Source of the DNA: an uncultured Candidatus Saccharibacteria bacterium
GTDB taxonomy: Bacteria; Patescibacteriota; Saccharimonadia; Saccharimonadales; JAUPVS01
Assembly (NCBI GenBank): GCA_964410185.1
Contig: CAYPFM010000003.1
Location: 85,534 to 149,533 of the forward strand
DNA length: 64,000 bases
Direction of reading: 5' to 3'
A program made the translations under genes and the position numbers. Below are positions 28,586-35,060 of the stretch, in pieces. The notes under the pieces were generated by a model, which saw nothing but the letters and a program-made list of their open reading frames with translations, was not told the DNA's origin and did not search any database. Numbering within the stretch: the first letter of the stretch is position 1; every line of letters begins with the position of its first letter.

Positions 28586-28736
28586 TAAACATATAAAGAG
28601 TGCAGCGAGAGTCCTAGCTCGTCGACCTGCCAGCAACCTACCCTCCGGGCAAGGTGCTCCATCTAGACCCGACATTGTCGGGAAAGATATGATACATCTC
28701 TTATCCTTTCCGGCATATTGTCAGAAAGGTTTTTTA
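28586..28736 (+). ncRNA. SAM-I (S-box) riboswitch with intrinsic terminator ahead of metK
   Basis: The 5' UTR aligns closely to the B. subtilis metK S-box: AUAAAGAG..GCAGCGAGAG...CCAGCAACC...CAAGGUGCU..AUCUAGA...GGGAAAGAUAUGA. The P1 halves CAUAU/AUAUG pair. It is followed by a CCUUUCC...GAAAGG stem plus UUUUUU that abuts the metK ATG. Confidence 0.7.
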
Positions 28737-30618: not shown

Positions 30619-31073
30619 ACTATCATAACAGATGTGGGGGTGCTAAAAATGACCTTGGCTAGCTCCGCTTTGTCATAGGTCGGGTTGGTGTCGGCTGCCA
30701 GGAACTCCTCCTTGGTGAACCAGGCCCACTTTTCGACGTGCTCGGTTTTGGTGATTTGATCGGCTGGAACCGTTACCTTAAAGTAGATGTTCATGCGTGG
30801 GATGCCATCAACAATCTTGCCGATGTTGTAATGAGCAATTTCAAAGTCACACGAGATAGATGCTGCTGGGACACCAAGCTCTTCTTGGAGCTCCCGTACC
30901 AGGCTGGTTTGGATTGTTTCGCCATAATCGACACCACCACCGGGTACTGCCCACCACCTGTCAACATCGTATTCTTTGACCAGCAAAACTTTTTGGTCCT
31001 GCACAACCAAAGCGCGGGCGGCCACGCGGTAGAGGCAATCATCAATATCACTAAGGCGGGGATCAGGTTGCAT
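30615..31073 (-). CDS. NUDIX hydrolase
   Basis: Nudix box PGGGVDYGETIQTSLVRELQEELGV. The conserved leaderless promoter motif lies immediately upstream. Confidence 0.8.
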   Translation of the reverse strand: MQPDPRLSDIDDCLYRVAARALVVQDQKVLLVKEYDVDRWWAVPGGGVDYGETIQTSLVRELQEELGVPAASISCDFEIAHYNIGKIVDGIPRMNIYFKVTVPADQITKTEHVEKWAWFTKEEFLAADTNPTYDKAELAKVIFSTPTSVMIV

Positions 31074-31093
31074 GCGTTAACTATAGCAAATTG
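31074..31093 (-). promoter_or_regulatory. Conserved leaderless extended -10 promoter motif, copy 1 (TTTGCTATAGTTAACGC-ATG)
   Basis: The plus strand reads cat-gcgTTAACTATAGCAAA. This is TGcTATAGT followed by a 6-nt spacer that abuts the ATG. Confidence 0.55.
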
Positions 31094-31128
31094 GGCACGC
31101 TTGTTTGAATCGGCGTACACTTAATACC

Positions 31129-31586
31129 ATGAACGACCACCTAAAGTCCTGGCTGTTTGTACTCACCCAAGCTGTGCTACTTGTTTTGCTGATATTTTTT
31201 GCCAAGGGCACTCCCCCCCACCACCTGCGGTAAATCTGCTTGGTAAGGTCATCCAAGTAATTGGTTGGGCAATATTACTGGTCTCGTTTTATGACCTACG
31301 GAAGTCGCTCACAGCGCTGCCGATGCCAACAAAACGTGGTGTGCTGCAAGTTCATGGTTTGTACAAATTCGTGCGGCACCCCATGTACGTGGGCGTGCTG
31401 ACTTTGTCGCTAGGAATCGCCATGTCCGGTGGTGGCTTTTTCAAATACGCGCTGGTGCTGGCACTGTATATCTTGTTTCGTTTTAAGGCTCGGTATGAAG
31501 AAACTTTATTGATCGCTAAATATCCGGACTACAAAGCCTACATGCACAAAACCGGCCGCTTTATACCGCGGCCGCCCAAGCACTAA
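31129..31586 (+). pseudogene. Isoprenylcysteine carboxyl methyltransferase (ICMT/PEMT)-family membrane methyltransferase, frameshifted in a C7 tract
   Basis: Frame 1 gives MNDHLKSWLFVLTQAVLLVLLIFFAKGTPPHHLR-stop. In the -1 frame, ...PPPPAVNLLGKVIQVIGWAILLVSFYDLRKS...VRHPMYVGVLTL...EETLL continues through the track ORF 31323..31586. A single extra C in the CCCCCCC run (about 31212-31218) would restore one roughly 152-aa ORF. Confidence 0.5.
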
Positions 31587-32231: not shown

Positions 32232-32289
32232 CTTGGCTTCCAAATAACTTCGATGGACTTTTTGGTGTCATCAAACTACGGCACTAATC

Positions 32290-32317
32290 AAAAAAGCAGC
32301 CTTTGCTGCTTTTTTGT
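32290..32317. terminator. Bidirectional rho-independent terminator
   Basis: AAAAAAGCAGC-cttt-GCTGCTTTTTT: a perfect 6-bp GC-rich hairpin flanked by an A-run and a T-run. Confidence 0.6.
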
Positions 32318-32341
32318 GGTATCTCAGTTTTGCAACTAAGT

Positions 32342-32371
32342 TTGCGAACCAGATCGTACCAATAATATAAT
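32342..32371 (+). promoter_or_regulatory. Sigma70-like promoter upstream of the tRNA-like gene
   Basis: TTGCGA-N18-TATAAT. The predicted TSS is about 90 nt upstream of the tRNA-like element. Confidence 0.45.
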
Positions 32372-32468
32372 CTGTTCAGCGTTTGATTTCAAGTATTCTC
32401 GCGCGAGTTAAGAAGCATTTAATAATCATTCGATACGATACATATGCCTGGTGCTTGGTTTACCCGCC

Positions 32469-32541
32469 GGGGGTACAGACTGGTGTCGCGATTGGGTTTG
32501 CGAGCCAGATCGGCCGGGTTCGATTCCCGGTGCCTCCACCA
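32469..32541 (+). tRNA. tRNA-Ala(UGC)-like gene with an atypical, shortened D-arm (possibly degenerate)
   Basis: The acceptor strands GGGGGUA and UGCCUCC pair over 7 bp and include a G3.U70 wobble. The anticodon loop is UUUGCGA (UGC). The T-arm is canonical, CCGGG-UUCGAUU-CCCGG. The discriminator is A and CCA is encoded. The D-region is only about 13 nt and the 31-39 pair is G-G. An 8-bp leader/trailer complementarity GCCUGGUG...CACCAGGC flanks the element. Confidence 0.5.
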
Positions 32542-32559
32542 GGCGAAATCGTTAACTTT

Positions 32560-32579
32560 CGCAGCCCAACTATAGCAAA
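32560..32579 (-). promoter_or_regulatory. Orphan copy of the conserved promoter motif (TTTGCTATAGTTGGG, no ATG downstream), overlapping the stop codon of the 32570..33775 gene and abutting the tRNA-like 3' end
   Basis: Plus strand: gcagcCCAACTATAGCAAActgcg. The CTATAG core carries the TAG stop of the metallopeptidase-like gene. On the minus strand it points antisense into the tRNA-like element. Confidence 0.3.
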
Positions 32580-33775
32580 CTGCGCACAAAGCCTGGTATT
32601 GCCTCAGTCGCTTCGTCATATTCGGCGTCGGCCATGAGGTTGCCGAGCTCTGTGAGCACATTACGTCCCGGGAATGCGCGAGCTAATTGGCGCTTGAGCT
32701 TGCGCTGGGCCGTCTGTCGCCGGCTGGTTGAATCTTCAAAGTAGGCGTTTATAAACAGTTTTATGTCGACGGGCTTCTTACCGCCGTTACAGAGGACATT
32801 CAGCAATTCCCGTTCTGGACGATAGGAACTCAACAGGTGGCGCTGTGATTCAGGATCGACAGTTTGTATGTCCGAACCGTAATAGCCCATGTTTAAGGCG
32901 ACGTGCTCGGTGACGGCTTCGTTGAGGGCCTGGCCAGCATTCTTGTGATCCTTATCAAATAAGCGATACAGTCCATGGTGTATGACGTCATCACCAAATC
33001 GACCTTGGTCGTTCTTGCCCGGCAGTTCAACCCCCACCATCACGTGCGTCAACTCATGCGCAATCGTTTTGGGAAATGAATATTGTGGCAGAAAGACCTC
33101 TTTTGACGAACCGTTTCGGTGCGTACTGGTGAATGCTGATGCGCCGTTTTCGTGCAGAAGCAAGCCGTCATCCATCGTGATATTAATATGTTCTAGTGTT
33201 TCAATTCGTTCTGGTTTGAGCACGGCTTCGGGCATCCAACCCTCTCTTGTCGCCTGTTTTAGATTACGGACATACTCACGTTTATGCCAAGGCCACTCCT
33301 GGTCCATAAAGCGCTGGCGGTTTGCTGCTACCTGCCAACTATGCCATTGCAAAAAGTTTAACAGGGCATCGTCTGCAACTGCTGGCGTTCCATCCGGATT
33401 GGCTTGGGCTAAGCGCTCAATAGCCAAGTGGCTATATTCAACCCCTAGTATATTCATTAAAAACTCTGGTACTTTGGTCTGCACCAAATCGAAACTGACT
33501 CGGGATAGTTGTTTTGGCTCAACTTCAGCCAGACGGTTGCGCACTTCCTGCAGATAATGTGTCATGCTCGTTTCAGCTGGCGGCAACTCATAATCCAGCC
33601 AGGGTTCAGCATCAACGAGAATGACCGCTCTGGCCAAATCACCTTGGACAGCAAACTGACCAATGGTATTACAAGAGTCCGGTGCGAACTCAGCTTCTAG
33701 CGCCTCGCACCGGGCGTCAAACTGCGCGTGTAACTCTATAGGGATTCCGTCTTCGACCGAAGTAGACATCCACAT
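32570..33775 (-). CDS. Putative zinc-dependent metallopeptidase (HExxH)
   Basis: 401 aa with the motif AHELTHVMVG. TAAAAT lies directly adjacent to the ATG, so the true start may be the second ATG (MSTSVED). Confidence 0.5.
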   Translation of the reverse strand: MWMSTSVEDGIPIELHAQFDARCEALEAEFAPDSCNTIGQFAVQGDLARAVILVDAEPWLDYELPPAETSMTHYLQEVRNRLAEVEPKQLSRVSFDLVQTKVPEFLMNILGVEYSHLAIERLAQANPDGTPAVADDALLNFLQWHSWQVAANRQRFMDQEWPWHKREYVRNLKQATREGWMPEAVLKPERIETLEHINITMDDGLLLHENGASAFTSTHRNGSSKEVFLPQYSFPKTIAHELTHVMVGVELPGKNDQGRFGDDVIHHGLYRLFDKDHKNAGQALNEAVTEHVALNMGYYGSDIQTVDPESQRHLLSSYRPERELLNVLCNGGKKPVDIKLFINAYFEDSTSRRQTAQRKLKRQLARAFPGRNVLTELGNLMADAEYDEATEAIPGFVRSLL

Positions 33776-33908
33776 ATTTTAGCATGTTTTGGGGTTTTTG
33801 TCGAGGGTTACTGCAGTAAAATCTTTACTGACCGGGCAGGACGTCTAGCCACAAACTTTGTATTTTTACGAGTTTTGTTGTATTATATACCGAAGTATAG
33901 ATTTATTT

Positions 33909-35060
33909 ATGATTAAAGTTGACACCCTCCAAACCCTGGCGCAACATCTTGATTTTGAGTTTAATCCAGATGTGTGTGCTGTTTCTAAGCCAAATTGGGC
34001 AAGTCGCTACCCAAGAGCTGCAATTGCTGAAGTTGGCGAGACGCGCTATGCCGATTTTGTTGTCGAGCCCCACAAACGGCCAAGCTACAGCCCCGACCGC
34101 GTCAGTGGTGTGGTTGAGGAAAACCTCGATTGGCAAGAGGAACAGGAATGGGCTAACGAAGCGGAGCCAGATGACGCGCATGATAAAACGCTCCATGGTT
34201 TGATTGAAGATCGCAAGGGCTACATTGCGCTGTACTCGGAATACAACGCGCTCGATAATCTTTACAGTTTTGAGTTAGTAAACGGTGCGAACGGTGCCAA
34301 TGCCGTACACCAGCTGCTTGGGCGAACCCCCAGCGTTGACATACCAGAATACGTGACAAGCAAGGCCAACCTGAATCCAAGCGGAATTTTTACTGCCGGC
34401 CAAATTACAGAAAATATTGCCGAAATGAAGATGCTGGTTCCGAATGTTAATGACTTCTACTTTACTAGACATGACCTTGGCACGGGAGGCTTTTATCATG
34501 GGCCGTCTTGGCCTAACACGACCCCTGTCATTTACCGCCACCTGTCGAAGGTGGCGCAAGACGTCGTTAAAGAAAACGGTGGACGCATCCATTGCACGGA
34601 AGCCGTGGCTGGTGGCGATGCTCGTCCGCAAGAGGTCGTTGTCATCGCCAAAGCTCTCGACGACTTAATTGCCCGCGTCAAACCAAGCATTGATGCGTTG
34701 GCAGTTGCAGAACTTCGTATCCGCGACGGTCGCTATGACACAGTCAGTGATGCCGAAATTGCCCACAAACTCCTTTGGAGTGCCTTCGGCCGGGCCCGTA
34801 CCAGCCAATCACGCATCGGCAAAAACTTGCTTGCGGTCACGCCAGAGACTCCCGACAGTGAGCGGGACCGTCGTGGCTACTGGATTGGCATGCAACTCGA
34901 GGCCGGCGTGATTGACACCAGACTGGCCCTGCACGAAGTCCGCCCCCACCCCGAAGCCACCGACGCCCAAACCCTCCGAGCACTCAACATCTTGCACATA
35001 CTCAAGACCGAATACGACCGCCGCTTTGCCGACAACAAAGACCAGTTATTAGTGGCGTAA
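33909..35060 (+). CDS. Hypothetical protein (about 383 aa); the only plus-strand gene in the cassette region
   Basis: Intact ORF. TATAGA-N7-ATG at MIKVDTL suggests a leaderless start. No recognised domain. Confidence 0.45.
   Translation: MIKVDTLQTLAQHLDFEFNPDVCAVSKPNWASRYPRAAIAEVGETRYADFVVEPHKRPSYSPDRVSGVVEENLDWQEEQEWANEAEPDDAHDKTLHGLIEDRKGYIALYSEYNALDNLYSFELVNGANGANAVHQLLGRTPSVDIPEYVTSKANLNPSGIFTAGQITENIAEMKMLVPNVNDFYFTRHDLGTGGFYHGPSWPNTTPVIYRHLSKVAQDVVKENGGRIHCTEAVAGGDARPQEVVVIAKALDDLIARVKPSIDALAVAELRIRDGRYDTVSDAEIAHKLLWSAFGRARTSQSRIGKNLLAVTPETPDSERDRRGYWIGMQLEAGVIDTRLALHEVRPHPEATDAQTLRALNILHILKTEYDRRFADNKDQLLVA

What the first reader, a model, noticed from the sequence alone, without database searches (positions are those of the whole stretch)
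32342..32579. tRNA-Ala-like element with truncated D-arm, own promoter, leader/trailer complementarity and an adjacent orphan promoter motif: possible island boundary or degenerate tRNA
**Seen in sequence.**
- A 73-nt segment has a 7-bp acceptor stem (GGGGGUA/UGCCUCC) with the G3.U70 alanine identity pair, anticodon loop UUUGCGA (UGC), a textbook T-arm (CCGGG UUCGAUU CCCGG), discriminator A and encoded CCA.
- The D-region is only about 13 nt (3-bp stem, 4-nt loop), and the closing anticodon-stem pair is G-G.
- A TTGCGA-N18-TATAAT promoter lies about 100 nt upstream.
- An 8-bp perfect complementarity (GCCUGGUG ... CACCAGGC) brackets the element.
- Immediately 3' is an orphan copy of the cassette promoter motif with no gene behind it.

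**Established knowledge.** tRNA 3' ends are preferred integration sites for genomic islands. Integration can leave partial tRNA copies behind.

**Inference.** Either this is a functional but non-canonical tRNA-Ala, or it is a tRNA remnant marking the edge of the accessory cassette region (32.5-41.6 kb). In the second case the intact tRNA-Ala would lie elsewhere.
Basis: partly seen in the sequence, partly recalled or inferred. Interest (0 to 1): 0.55.

Follow-up and report, generated by a model that had tools for sequence, protein, structure and literature searches.

The report
tRNA-Ala mimic with dedicated antisense RNA
This is neither an ordinary alanine tRNA nor an island scar: it is one half of an undescribed two-RNA unit of tiny host-dependent bacteria, an alanine-type tRNA look-alike paired with a neighbouring small RNA gene predicted to bind its anticodon arm.

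Summary
Window 32446-32544 (+) encodes a structured tRNA-like RNA. It has a 5'/3' closing helix, the alanine identity features checked (G3:U70, A73, encoded CCA), a canonical T arm, a 3-bp D stem and a fast-evolving 'anticodon' arm.

ARAGORN and Rfam do not accept it as a tRNA. The genome already has canonical tRNA-Ala(UGC), tRNA-Ala(GGC) and a tmRNA.

I found 18 distinct relatives in Saccharimonadales and about 29 in a second Patescibacteria order. Base pairing is kept by compensatory changes. The Ala identity features are near-invariant, but the UGC 'anticodon' is not conserved.

The 'promoter' TTGCGA-N18-TATAAT overlaps a copy of the anticodon arm (32332-32356). That copy tracks the arm in each genome. 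It carries a conserved promoter on the opposite strand and is followed by a terminator. It therefore looks like a ~70-nt small RNA with 25 nt complementary to the arm (-43.9 kcal/mol). Differences between copy and arm are 30 wobble-compatible versus 3 incompatible transitions.

A same-genus genome lacks both genes together. No att repeat or integrase is present. Expression is unproven, and what the free mimic does is unknown; an antisense-controlled, possibly toxin-like tRNA mimic is my best guess.

The parts
32290..32315 (.). Bidirectional intrinsic terminator (A6-GCAGC-CTTT-GCTGC-T6). It ends the upstream + ORF and, on the - strand, the proposed small RNA.
   Evidence: Read directly. Rfam sub-threshold matches to terminator-type sRNAs on both strands. 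The RNA fold of the - strand shows a 12-bp hairpin followed by a U run. The tool's own terminator scan did not list it.
32288..32357 (-). Proposed ~70-nt antisense small RNA gene ('anti-arm sRNA'): a 5' seed, a short hairpin and the terminator.
   Evidence: Promoter position, fold, homologous arrangement in relatives. Expression is not shown.
32332..32356 (-). Seed: 25 nt complementary, including 5 G.U pairs, to the anticodon arm of the tRNA-like RNA (32488-32512). On the + strand it reads as a direct copy of the arm.
   Evidence: RNAduplex gives -43.9 kcal/mol and 25 contiguous pairs. The best real tRNA of the genome reaches -24.8. The copy tracks the arm in each genome.
32364..32392 (-). Promoter of the small RNA: TTGAAA-17-TATATT. 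The predicted start near 32357 is the first base of the complementarity.
   Evidence: 10 of 12 matches. In 12 of 17 related loci an extended -10 (TGnTAnnnT) lies on this strand at a fixed 74-85 nt from the leader, against 1 of 17 on the other strand.
32342..32371 (+). TTGCGA is the loop part of the arm copy, and the TATAAT box overlaps the AT-rich - strand -10.
   Evidence: The spacing is not conserved in the G001, G004 and G110 homologues (own reading).
32407..32426 (.). Conserved AT-rich block GTTAAGAAGCATTTAATAAT between the two divergent promoters (consensus TTAA-N6-TTTAAT).
   Evidence: Invariant columns. Present in the loci printed.
32434..32439 (+). -10 box TACGAT of the tRNA-like gene, 6 nt upstream of the first base of the closing helix.
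   Evidence: All 18 distinct Saccharimonadales members carry a -10 box 6-7 nt before the leader: TAnnAT in 17, TACAGT in G001. About half carry TGn before it (own reading).
32446..32452 (+). P1, 5' strand (GCCUGGU). It pairs with A73-CCA-GGC.
   Evidence: 2 pairs with compensatory change, 94% of cells paired. Only 1 of 41 ordinary tRNAs of this genome has a comparable leader/trailer helix.
32453..32468 (+). Leader linker with a conserved GG...RCCC motif. It can form a small hairpin or pair with the acceptor 5' G run.
   Evidence: Which pairing is used is unresolved.
32469..32541 (+). 73-nt tRNA-like core. Acceptor 32469-75 with 32531-37 (G3:U70); D stem 32478-80 with 32485-87; loop UGGU; arm 32490-96 with 32505-11 containing an internal G.A mismatch; 8-nt loop 32497-32504; T arm 32514-18 with 32526-30; A73; CCA.
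   Evidence: RF00023 (tmRNA) scores 26.9 bits, below its cut-off, in the same sub-threshold range as the genome's ordinary tRNAs.
32538..32544 (+). P1, 3' strand (ACCAGGC). It sequesters the discriminator and CCA in the primary transcript.
32568..32579 (-). Orphan copy of the local cassette promoter (- strand TTTGCTATAGTT). It overlaps the stop of the 401-aa ORF, points into the tRNA-like gene in antisense, and has no start codon behind it. It is specific to this genome.
   Evidence: 6 copies in the window against 0.27 expected. Own reading. Absent from the homologous loci.

Best explanation
Window 32288-32544 holds a two-gene RNA module.

**Gene 1 (+ strand, 32446-32544)** makes a roughly 99-nt transcript.
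- Its first 7 nt pair with A73-CCA-GGC at its end (helix P1).
- Inside is a tRNA-shaped core whose upper half is that of tRNA-Ala: G3:U70, A73, CCA, a standard T arm and a D loop carrying GG.
- Its lower half is a fast-evolving stem-loop that is not used as an alanine anticodon.

**Gene 2 (- strand, about 32357 to 32288)** is divergently transcribed. It makes a roughly 70-nt small RNA whose 5' 25 nt are complementary to that stem-loop.

**Shown**
- The tRNA-like fold, the near-invariant alanine identity features, and helix P1.
- The arm copy evolves in lock-step with the arm.
- Promoter and terminator signals lie on the strand that makes the copy antisense.
- The module is gained and lost as a unit.

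**Inferred**
- Both RNAs are made.
- The small RNA docks on the U-turn loop (YUUG...) and invades the stem, which is weakened by an internal mismatch that stays unpaired in nearly all members.
- This gives a 15-25-bp duplex that inactivates the mimic, probably through RNase III. Dedicated antisense RNAs of plasmid copy control and type I toxin-antitoxin loci work this way.
- Once the leader is removed, the mimic is charged with alanine by AlaRS, which reads only the acceptor stem.

**Guess**
- The free mimic is harmful or strongly dose-sensitive. It could compete with tRNA-Ala or tmRNA for AlaRS, EF-Tu, RNase P or the ribosome. That would explain why each copy keeps its own repressor.
For: **Structure**
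- 18 distinct Saccharimonadales sequences are 97% paired, with 9 pairs showing compensatory change. None of 500 shuffles reached the observed pairing, compensatory-change counts or covariation score, and shifted registers give at most 51% pairing.
- The precursor MFE has a z-score of -3.15.

**Identity**
- G3:U70 in 45 of 47 sequences, A73 in 47 of 47, CCA in 41 of 47, across two orders.

**Not a decoder**
- No ARAGORN or Rfam call.
- Loops of 7 to about 11 nt carry GCG, GUC, GCA, ACG or UGC in the anticodon position.
- Canonical tRNA-Ala genes are present.

**Partner RNA**
- The self-match of arm and copy is specific. Mean alignment score is 10.3 on the diagonal against 6.4 off it. Duplex energy ranks first of 17 in 7 loci.
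- In G000 the duplex is 25 bp at -43.9 kcal/mol.
- G000 has a - strand promoter. An extended -10 lies on that strand at a fixed distance in 12 of 17 loci, against 1 of 17 on the + strand.
- In a second order, 33 of 151 genomes carry hits. There the copy lies downstream and convergent, with a -10 box 5-7 nt from it in about 24 of 29 elements.
- Copy-versus-arm differences are 11:1 plus 19:2 wobble-compatible to incompatible transitions. The pooled one-sided binomial gives p of about 7e-7 (own arithmetic). In the second order the 19 compatible changes split 9 A/G and 10 C/T, so AT drift does not explain the bias.
- The L069 and G001 terminators can only serve a - strand transcript (own reading).

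**Unit behaviour**
- G002 lacks both genes in one clean gap of about 270 bp.
- In G000 the module has moved from the ancestral tRNA-Pro site.
- RNase III is encoded.
Against: - There is no expression evidence. The one metatranscriptome that holds part of the stretch does not cover 32288-32544, and standard libraries lose RNAs of this size.
- Promoters and terminators are consensus matches only.
- In about ten Saccharimonadales loci the complementarity is only 8-10 nt, and its duplex energy does not stand out from cross-locus controls.
- Nearest-neighbour folding prefers non-cloverleaf structures by 9-16 kcal/mol in most members. RNAalifold replaces the acceptor stem with a leader:acceptor hairpin.
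- P1 hides the CCA end, so charging needs a processing step that has not been shown.
- Nothing measures toxicity, and no protein partner co-occurs.
Confidence: 0.6

Rival explanations
1. It is a working, decoding tRNA that carries alanine to non-alanine codons (CGC/CGU here; GAC, UGC and others elsewhere). That would make it a deliberate mistranslating or recoding tRNA, with the antisense RNA masking its anticodon.
For: - Nine Saccharimonadales members have textbook 7-nt loops of the form Y-U/C-NNN-A-N. At a relaxed threshold ARAGORN reads eight of them as Arg and L069 as Asp(gtc); it also reads L058 as Cys(gca).
- A 6-bp anticodon stem, a 3-nt variable region and a small D loop resemble mitochondrial tRNA-Ser(UCN), which decodes (own knowledge).
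- AlaRS ignores the anticodon (established knowledge).
Against: - In G000 and about half of the family the loop has 8-9 nt, or the triplet is shifted by one.
- In the second order the common 7-nt loop CUUGNCA would put C at position 37.
- The stem holds a mismatch that stays unpaired in nearly all members.
- Loop sequence drifts between close relatives, which a codon-reading function would not allow.
Confidence: 0.15
2. The copy of the arm is only a decaying partial duplication of the gene, kept similar by gene conversion. No small RNA is made, and the tRNA-like RNA works alone.
For: In L068, L070 and G001 the copy extends into D-arm and acceptor-like sequence. It therefore began as a partial duplicate.
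Against: - Transition differences are 30:3 in the wobble-compatible direction, split evenly between A/G and C/T.
- Promoter boxes sit at a fixed distance on the antisense strand in two different gene arrangements.
- Some terminators are oriented for that strand only.
- The copy persists across two orders while its flanks are unalignable.
Confidence: 0.1
3. It is a non-ribosomal alanine donor, for peptidoglycan cross-bridges (Fem/MurM type) or lipid aminoacylation, kept out of translation by its odd lower half.
For: - The alanine identity set is near-invariant while the anticodon arm is free to vary.
- G000 encodes one FemAB-family protein and two aminoacyl-PG-synthase C domains.
Against: - G001 and G004 carry the RNA but have neither family, and G110 lacks FemAB.
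- A donor tRNA would not need a dedicated antisense RNA or a helix that hides CCA.
Confidence: 0.07
4. It is a tRNA-Ala remnant or att site left by integration, marking the edge of the accessory cassette region.
For: - In G000 the module lies beside genome-specific genes and an orphan cassette promoter.
- It has left its ancestral site.
Against: - Both acceptor strands are intact and conserved.
- The window has no repeat of the 3' half.
- No integrase is present.
- The same gene lies in housekeeping contexts elsewhere.
Confidence: 0.02

Closest known systems
tRNA-like domain of tmRNA (SsrA)
   Same: - It is an alanine-accepting upper half of a tRNA: G3:U70, A73, CCA, a T arm and a reduced D region.
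- The lower half does not decode.
- The T stem CCGGG/CCCGG is identical to that of this genome's own tmRNA.
   Different: - There is no mRNA-like reading frame and no pseudoknots.
- The lower half is a closed hairpin.
- RF00023 scores only 26.9 bits against a cut-off of 47.
- A full tmRNA exists at C4:13696-14098.
- It has a partner antisense RNA.
Canonical tRNA-Ala
   Same: Acceptor stem identity set, T arm and encoded CCA, as in all 42 tRNAs of this genome.
   Different: - The D stem has 3 bp with a 4-nt loop.
- The anticodon stem has 6 bp with an internal mismatch.
- The loop has 8 nt and no conserved Ala anticodon.
- A leader/trailer helix is present.
- ARAGORN (default threshold) and Rfam reject it.
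Divergently encoded antisense RNAs of type I toxin-antitoxin loci (IstR-1/tisB, OhsC/shoB, Orz/zorO) and plasmid copy control (CopA/CopT, RNA I/RNA II)
   Same: - A short dedicated RNA is encoded beside its target, on the other strand of a partial repeat.
- It has 15-25 nt of complementarity.
- The target site is a stem-loop with a YUNR-type loop and a destabilised upper stem.
- The target is held by 5'/3' pairing.
- Distribution is patchy, multi-copy and mobile.

The comparison rests on my own knowledge of these systems.
   Different: - The target is not an mRNA or a replication primer. It is a tRNA-shaped RNA with no conserved ORF (the 43-codon frame at 32444 is not conserved).
- No toxicity has been shown.
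RNA-RNA (type VIII) toxin-antitoxin pairs such as SdsR/RyeA and CreT/CreA
   Same: Both partners would be RNAs. CreT acts on the tRNA pool (own knowledge; reviews found).
   Different: - There is no Cas dependence.
- The pair is not a cis-antisense overlap.
- The 'toxin' would be a tRNA mimic rather than a tRNA-sequestering mRNA-like RNA.
Bacterial Y RNA YrlA (tRNA-like module bound by Ro60/Rsr)
   Same: It is a stable small RNA with paired 5' and 3' ends and a tRNA-like T/D elbow (PMC4201824, listed).
   Different: - In YrlA the open end replaces the anticodon arm and the acceptor-like stem is closed. Here it is the reverse.
- There is no Rfam match.
- No TROVE/Ro60 gene is in G000.
Pseudo-tRNAs and mistranslating tRNAs (B. 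cereus tRNA-Other; the tRNA-ProX family)
   Same: These are extra tRNA-like genes whose acceptor identity and anticodon disagree, or which are not used in decoding (own knowledge).
   Different: None of those has a cognate antisense RNA, a CCA-sequestering leader helix or a hypervariable anticodon arm.

Membership tests
tRNA (RF00005; canonical tRNA-Ala) | Cloverleaf accepted by tRNA finders and by the Rfam model at its gathering score | tested here: not met
   - ARAGORN finds 0 genes in the window.
- There is no RF00005 match at gathering score or at E<=10.
- ARAGORN calls it only at a relaxed threshold, and then with an implausible Leu(gag) reading.
tRNA (RF00005; canonical tRNA-Ala) | Alanine identity set G3:U70, A73, CCA | tested here: met
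   G3:U70 in 45 of 47 relatives, A73 in 47 of 47, CCA in 41 of 47.
tRNA (RF00005; canonical tRNA-Ala) | 7-nt anticodon loop with a conserved alanine anticodon | tested here: not met
   The loop here has 8 nt. The shared triplet is GCG, others have GUC, GCA or ACG, and UGC is not conserved.
tmRNA (RF00023 / RF04321) | Tag-peptide reading frame and pseudoknots between the two halves of the tRNA-like domain | tested here: not met
   The element has 73 nt with a closed hairpin. It scores 26.9 bits against a cut-off of 47. The genome's real tmRNA scores 67.5 bits.
Integration scar / att site in a tRNA gene | Direct repeat of the tRNA 3' part at the far end of an island, and an adjacent integrase | tested here: not met
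   - There is no second copy of the 3' 23 nt with up to 3 mismatches in the window.
- The genome holds only one blastn match.
- The flanking ORFs match no Pfam, NCBIfam or PADLOC family.
Type I toxin-antitoxin locus | Small antisense RNA gene with its own promoter and terminator next to the target | tested here: inconclusive
   Sequence signals are present and conserved. No transcript data exist.
Type I toxin-antitoxin locus | Target encodes a small toxic (usually hydrophobic) peptide | tested here: not met
   The only frame, 43 codons from 32444, loses its start in G001 and G004. The conserved features are RNA helices.
YrlA / Y RNA | Ro60 (TROVE) partner and the Y RNA architecture | tested here: not met
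   No PF05731 match in G000, which is 97% complete. No Rfam match.
Antisense-controlled RNA (general kind) | Complementarity maintained by co-evolution of the two genes | tested here: met
   Lock-step change of arm and copy. Wobble-compatible to incompatible transitions are 30:3.

The most novel reading that the evidence does not exclude
This is an RNA-only addiction or defence module. The 'toxin' is an alanine-accepting tRNA mimic, released by leader processing. It then poisons translation by titrating AlaRS, EF-Tu, SmpB or RNase P, or by delivering alanine at the wrong place. The 'antitoxin' is a short-lived antisense RNA that masks and destroys its anticodon arm. Each paralogue has a private address code, which explains the multiple orthogonal copies per genome in Patescibacteria.
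Probability: 0.3. Interest if true: 0.9.

Novelty: categorically new. Interest (0 to 1): 0.8.

Why it matters
Patescibacteria (CPR) have tiny genomes and very few described regulatory RNAs. Here a roughly 270-bp unit made only of RNA genes is kept, duplicated, moved and lost as a block.

- It occurs in 22% of the sampled genomes of one order and in a few percent of another.
- It would be a natural case of a tRNA-Ala scaffold reused with a programmable lower half. tmRNA and synthetic biology exploit the same property.
- It would also be a tRNA-shaped RNA under dedicated antisense control, which I did not find described.
- If the mimic is harmful when free, this opens a new class of RNA-RNA toxin-antitoxin or defence systems.
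- If it is benign, it is still a new regulated player around AlaRS, RNase P or the ribosome.
- It also matters for annotation. Several members are called tRNA-Arg, tRNA-Asp, tRNA-Cys or tRNA-Thr by standard tools although they carry alanine identity.

Tried and rejected
- **Expression data.** One DNA run holds the locus. The RNA run with 10% of the words covers only 30907-31191 and 34125-34338, so it says nothing about expression.
- **Flanking ORFs.** The 401-aa and 400-aa ORFs next to the element match no Pfam, NCBIfam or PADLOC family. They are unrelated to each other and are not conserved next to the element elsewhere.
- **Protein synteny.** There is none between this window and the homologous loci. 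Neighbours elsewhere are housekeeping genes.
- **Leader/trailer pairing as a general pre-tRNA trait.** Rejected: 31 of 41 tRNAs have none and only tRNA-Phe has 8 bp. The 'leader' of ordinary tRNA-Ala hits in the order scan is their TGGTATAAT promoter.
- **Alternative long hairpin merging the D and anticodon regions** (the thermodynamic MFE). Rejected: it is only 75% paired across the family.
- **UM stem as a genome-wide repeat.** Rejected.
- **Other targets of the small RNA.** No real tRNA or other site in the genome comes close.
- **Correlation with FemAB or aaPG synthase.** None.
- **Viral contigs.** No member found.
- **L059 and L071 pattern hits.** No tRNA and no match to the family model. 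L059 looks like high-GC coding sequence, a chance match.
- **Literature.** Seven full-text searches gave no description of such an RNA.
It is not linked, because the module lies in other contexts in relatives.
Full report
**1. What is at the coordinates**

The sequence shows the following.
- A 73-nt tRNA-shaped core at 32469-32541. The acceptor stem is GGGGGUA/UGCCUCC with G3:U70, followed by A73 and an encoded CCA.
- A T arm CCGGG-UUCGAUU-CCCGG.
- A D region reduced to GAC-UGGU-GUC.
- An 8-bp complementarity between GCCUGGUG (32446-53) and CACCAGGC (32537-44).

ARAGORN finds no tRNA or tmRNA in the whole window. Rfam gives only a SAM riboswitch at 28588, and a permissive scan of the region gives nothing relevant.

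The genome is 1.09 Mb and 97% complete. Earlier notes and record titles identify it as a Saccharibacteria/Saccharimonadales genome. It has 42 ordinary tRNAs, all with encoded CCA. They include tRNA-Ala(UGC) at C4:70506 and tRNA-Ala(GGC) at C3:222355. A tmRNA lies at C4:13696-14098. The element is therefore an extra RNA, not the cell's alanine tRNA.

**2. It is a conserved, structured RNA**

How relatives were found:
- Two same-genus genomes (G001, G004) and one genome of another family (G110) hold homologues.
- A pattern scan of species-representative genomes and of metagenomes, followed by a covariance-model search, raised this to 18 distinct sequences. All are from Saccharimonadales.

Support for the structure:
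- With the structure P1 + acceptor + D + arm + T, 97% of cells pair.
- 9 pairs show compensatory change, covering 29 cells.
- None of 500 shuffles reached the observed pairing, compensatory-change counts or covariation score.
- Shifted registers pair at most 51%.

The compensatory changes cover the D stem (A-U to G-C), P1 (C-G to U-A) and five of six arm pairs.

The arm register supported by covariation is 4 bp, a mismatch that stays unpaired in nearly all members, then 2 bp, with a 7-9-nt loop. In G000 the loop is UUUGCGAG.

The UGC triplet is not conserved. Most members share GCG. L069 has GUC, L058 and L062 have GCA, and L074b has ACG.

The thermodynamically best fold merges the D and arm regions into one long hairpin. 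That fold is only 75% paired across the family and is rejected.

**3. The promoter question and the hidden second gene**

Each of the 18 members has a -10 box 6-7 nt before the first base of P1. It reads TAnnAT in 17 and TACAGT in G001. Here it is TACGAT at 32434-39. The primary transcript therefore starts with the P1 strand (reading).

However, TTGCGA belongs to a direct copy of the element's own arm, at 32332-56.

That copy is found near the element in at least 6-8 of the 13 Saccharimonadales loci first tested, and in about 24 of 29 in the second order. It follows each genome's own arm sequence, although the arms differ greatly between genomes. This holds even for the odd arms: ACGA in L074b, GUC in L069 and GCGG in L075.

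Four lines of evidence say the copy is read on the minus strand.
- **Promoter in G000.** A promoter TTGAAA-17-TATATT at 32392 to 32364 places the start at about 32357, the first base of the complementarity.
- **Promoter in relatives.** An extended -10 (TGnTAnnnT) lies on the minus strand at a fixed 74-85 nt from the leader in 12 of 17 loci. Only 1 of 17 has one on the plus strand.
- **Terminator.** The copy is followed on the minus strand by an intrinsic terminator. In L069 and G001 there is no plus-strand gene upstream for that terminator to serve, and in L069 the U tract is on the minus strand only (reading).
- **Wobble bias.** Differences between copy and arm are overwhelmingly A (copy) against G (arm), or C (copy) against U (arm). 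These leave G.U pairs in a duplex between the minus-strand RNA and the arm. The count is 11:1 in Saccharimonadales.

The predicted G000 small RNA is about 70 nt: a 5' seed, a short hairpin and a terminator. It pairs with 32488-32512 over 25 bp, including 5 G.U pairs, at -43.9 kcal/mol. The best real tRNA reaches -24.8 kcal/mol.

**4. Independent confirmation in a second order**

The refined model found three copies in a distant genome of the same phylum, G185. It then found hits in 33 of 151 genomes of that genome's order, with up to four per genome.

The 29 distinct elements have these properties.
- They again carry G3:U70, A73 and mostly CCA. Across both orders the counts are 45 of 47, 47 of 47 and 41 of 47.
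- They have the small D arm and P1, but quite different arms.
- The copy covers the 5' strand plus the loop. It lies 40-100 nt downstream, convergent with the element and behind a shared terminator.
- A -10 or extended -10 box sits on the minus strand 5-7 nt from the copy in about 24 of 29.

Copy-versus-arm differences here are 19 wobble-compatible (9 A/G, 10 C/T) against 2 incompatible. Pooled with the first order this is 30:3. My own one-sided binomial arithmetic gives p of about 7e-7. The even A/G-to-C/T split rules out simple AT drift.

A different gene arrangement with the same logic is strong evidence for a functional RNA-RNA pair.

A sub-group with a full-size D arm scores as tRNA in Rfam. 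It keeps P1 and the odd loops, but has no nearby copy with a promoter.

**5. Unit behaviour and context**

- In G004 and G001 the module lies just after queA and tRNA-Pro(GGG). In G110 it lies directly upstream of rnpB, and in L068 it lies between tRNA-Pro and rnpB. In three other loci it lies between an FAD-linked oxidase gene and cyoA.
- In G000 the ancestral site now holds an unrelated 1.1-kb segment, and the module sits in this window.
- G002 is a 100%-complete same-genus genome. It lacks the small RNA gene and the tRNA-like gene together, in one clean gap of about 270 bp.
- No member was found on viral contigs.
- There is no repeat of the 3' half and no integrase, so the island-scar reading fails.

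The orphan cassette promoter at 32568-79 is real. It points into the element in antisense, but it is specific to this genome.

**6. How it most likely works**

*Shown:* the fold, the alanine identity features, P1, the lock-step partner, strand-specific signals, and modular gain and loss.

*Inferred:*
- The arm is an antisense docking site rather than an anticodon arm. Its loop starts YUUG, which is a YUNR U-turn. The upper stem is weakened by a mismatch that stays unpaired in nearly all members. Both features are known from CopT, RNA II and hok-type targets (own knowledge).
- The small RNA is a dedicated repressor. RNase III is encoded.
- The near-invariant alanine set argues that AlaRS recognition matters. 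tRNA-Ala is the scaffold whose charging does not depend on the lower half, so the lower half is free to serve as an address.
- P1 hides the CCA, so the primary transcript should be inert until it is processed.

*Unknown:* what the free mimic does. Its patchy, multi-copy, mobile distribution and its private repressors fit a toxin-antitoxin-like or dose-sensitive element.
- A role as a non-ribosomal Ala donor finds no support in co-occurrence.
- A decoding or mistranslating role is weakened by 8-9-nt or shifted loops and by rapid drift.

**7. Caveats**

- No transcript evidence could be obtained.
- In about ten Saccharimonadales loci the complementarity is only 8-10 nt inside a three-way-junction-like upstream module. 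There the strand evidence from G.U pairs is mixed (own reading).
- RNAalifold and MFE folding suggest that the leader motif RCCC can pair with the acceptor G run. This may be a further inactive state or may be chance.

**8. Comparison and novelty**

The element fails the tests for tRNA, tmRNA, YrlA and att scar. It resembles type I TA and plasmid antisense control in architecture only.

Rfam (4227 families) has no matching family for the reduced-D-arm members of either order that were scanned. Seven full-text searches found no description. I therefore rate the two-RNA module as a new kind of system, with the function still open.

Noticed in passing
window 32570-33775 (-): A 401-aa ORF with an HExxH motif (IAHELTHVMVG) matches no Pfam, NCBIfam or PADLOC family. 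The divergent 400-aa ORF at 33858-35060 is also unmatched, and the two are unrelated to each other.
   Followed up: partly
G000:C4:13696-14098 (locus L002): The genome's tmRNA has an unusual T loop (CCGGG-GGCAGUA-CCCGG). ARAGORN misses it, although Rfam scores it at 67.5 bits.
   Followed up: no
G000:C3:225403-225478: tRNA-Phe(GAA) is the only ordinary tRNA of the genome with an 8-bp leader/trailer helix (AAGUUGGU with ACCAAUUU), like the P1 of the element.
   Followed up: no
L022:2100-3216 (G000:C1:17600-18716): The ancestral site of the module, after tRNA-Pro(GGG), now holds a 1.1-kb segment. It contains a 286-aa ORF without a Pfam match and a CTGCGAC...GUCGCAG palindrome that recalls the family's loop motif.
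   Followed up: partly
L091, L093, L102, L107, L104:699-789: A sub-family has a full-size D arm and G3:U70, with P1 GCCUGGUG/CACCAGGC identical to that of G000 in L093, L107 and L104 and differing by one base in L091 and L102. Loops such as UUUGACA and AUUGUCA would put C at position 37. Standard tools name these members tRNA-Ser, tRNA-Thr or tRNA-Ala. No antisense copy with a promoter was found within 300 nt.
   Followed up: partly
L062, L066, L067, L076 (upstream of the element): The upstream module holds two hairpins. The loop of the second carries a motif that does not fit the adjacent element but may fit another paralogue (for example GCUCGCGACC in L076, similar to the arm of L072).
   Followed up: no
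alignment A5, columns 48-50 with 63-65, and columns 22-25 with 32-35: The loop triplet GCG is complementary to the invariant connector CGC (paired in 15-17 of 18). The leader RCCC is complementary to the acceptor GGGY, with 3 compensatory changes. Both are possible alternative, inactive conformations.
   Followed up: partly
L082, L083, L084, L096, L097, L103, L105: In 7 of 30 loci of the second order the module lies beside or between paralogous large hypothetical proteins (over 440 aa). They have no Pfam match, and the protein atlas returns only unnamed CPR clusters.
   Followed up: partly
window 32568-32579: One of six copies of the cassette promoter block AACTATAGCAAA in the window has no gene behind it. 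It would drive antisense transcription across the tRNA-like gene, in this genome only.
   Followed up: partly
window 28588-28693: A SAM-I riboswitch (RF00162, 48.7 bits) lies directly upstream of metK.
   Followed up: no
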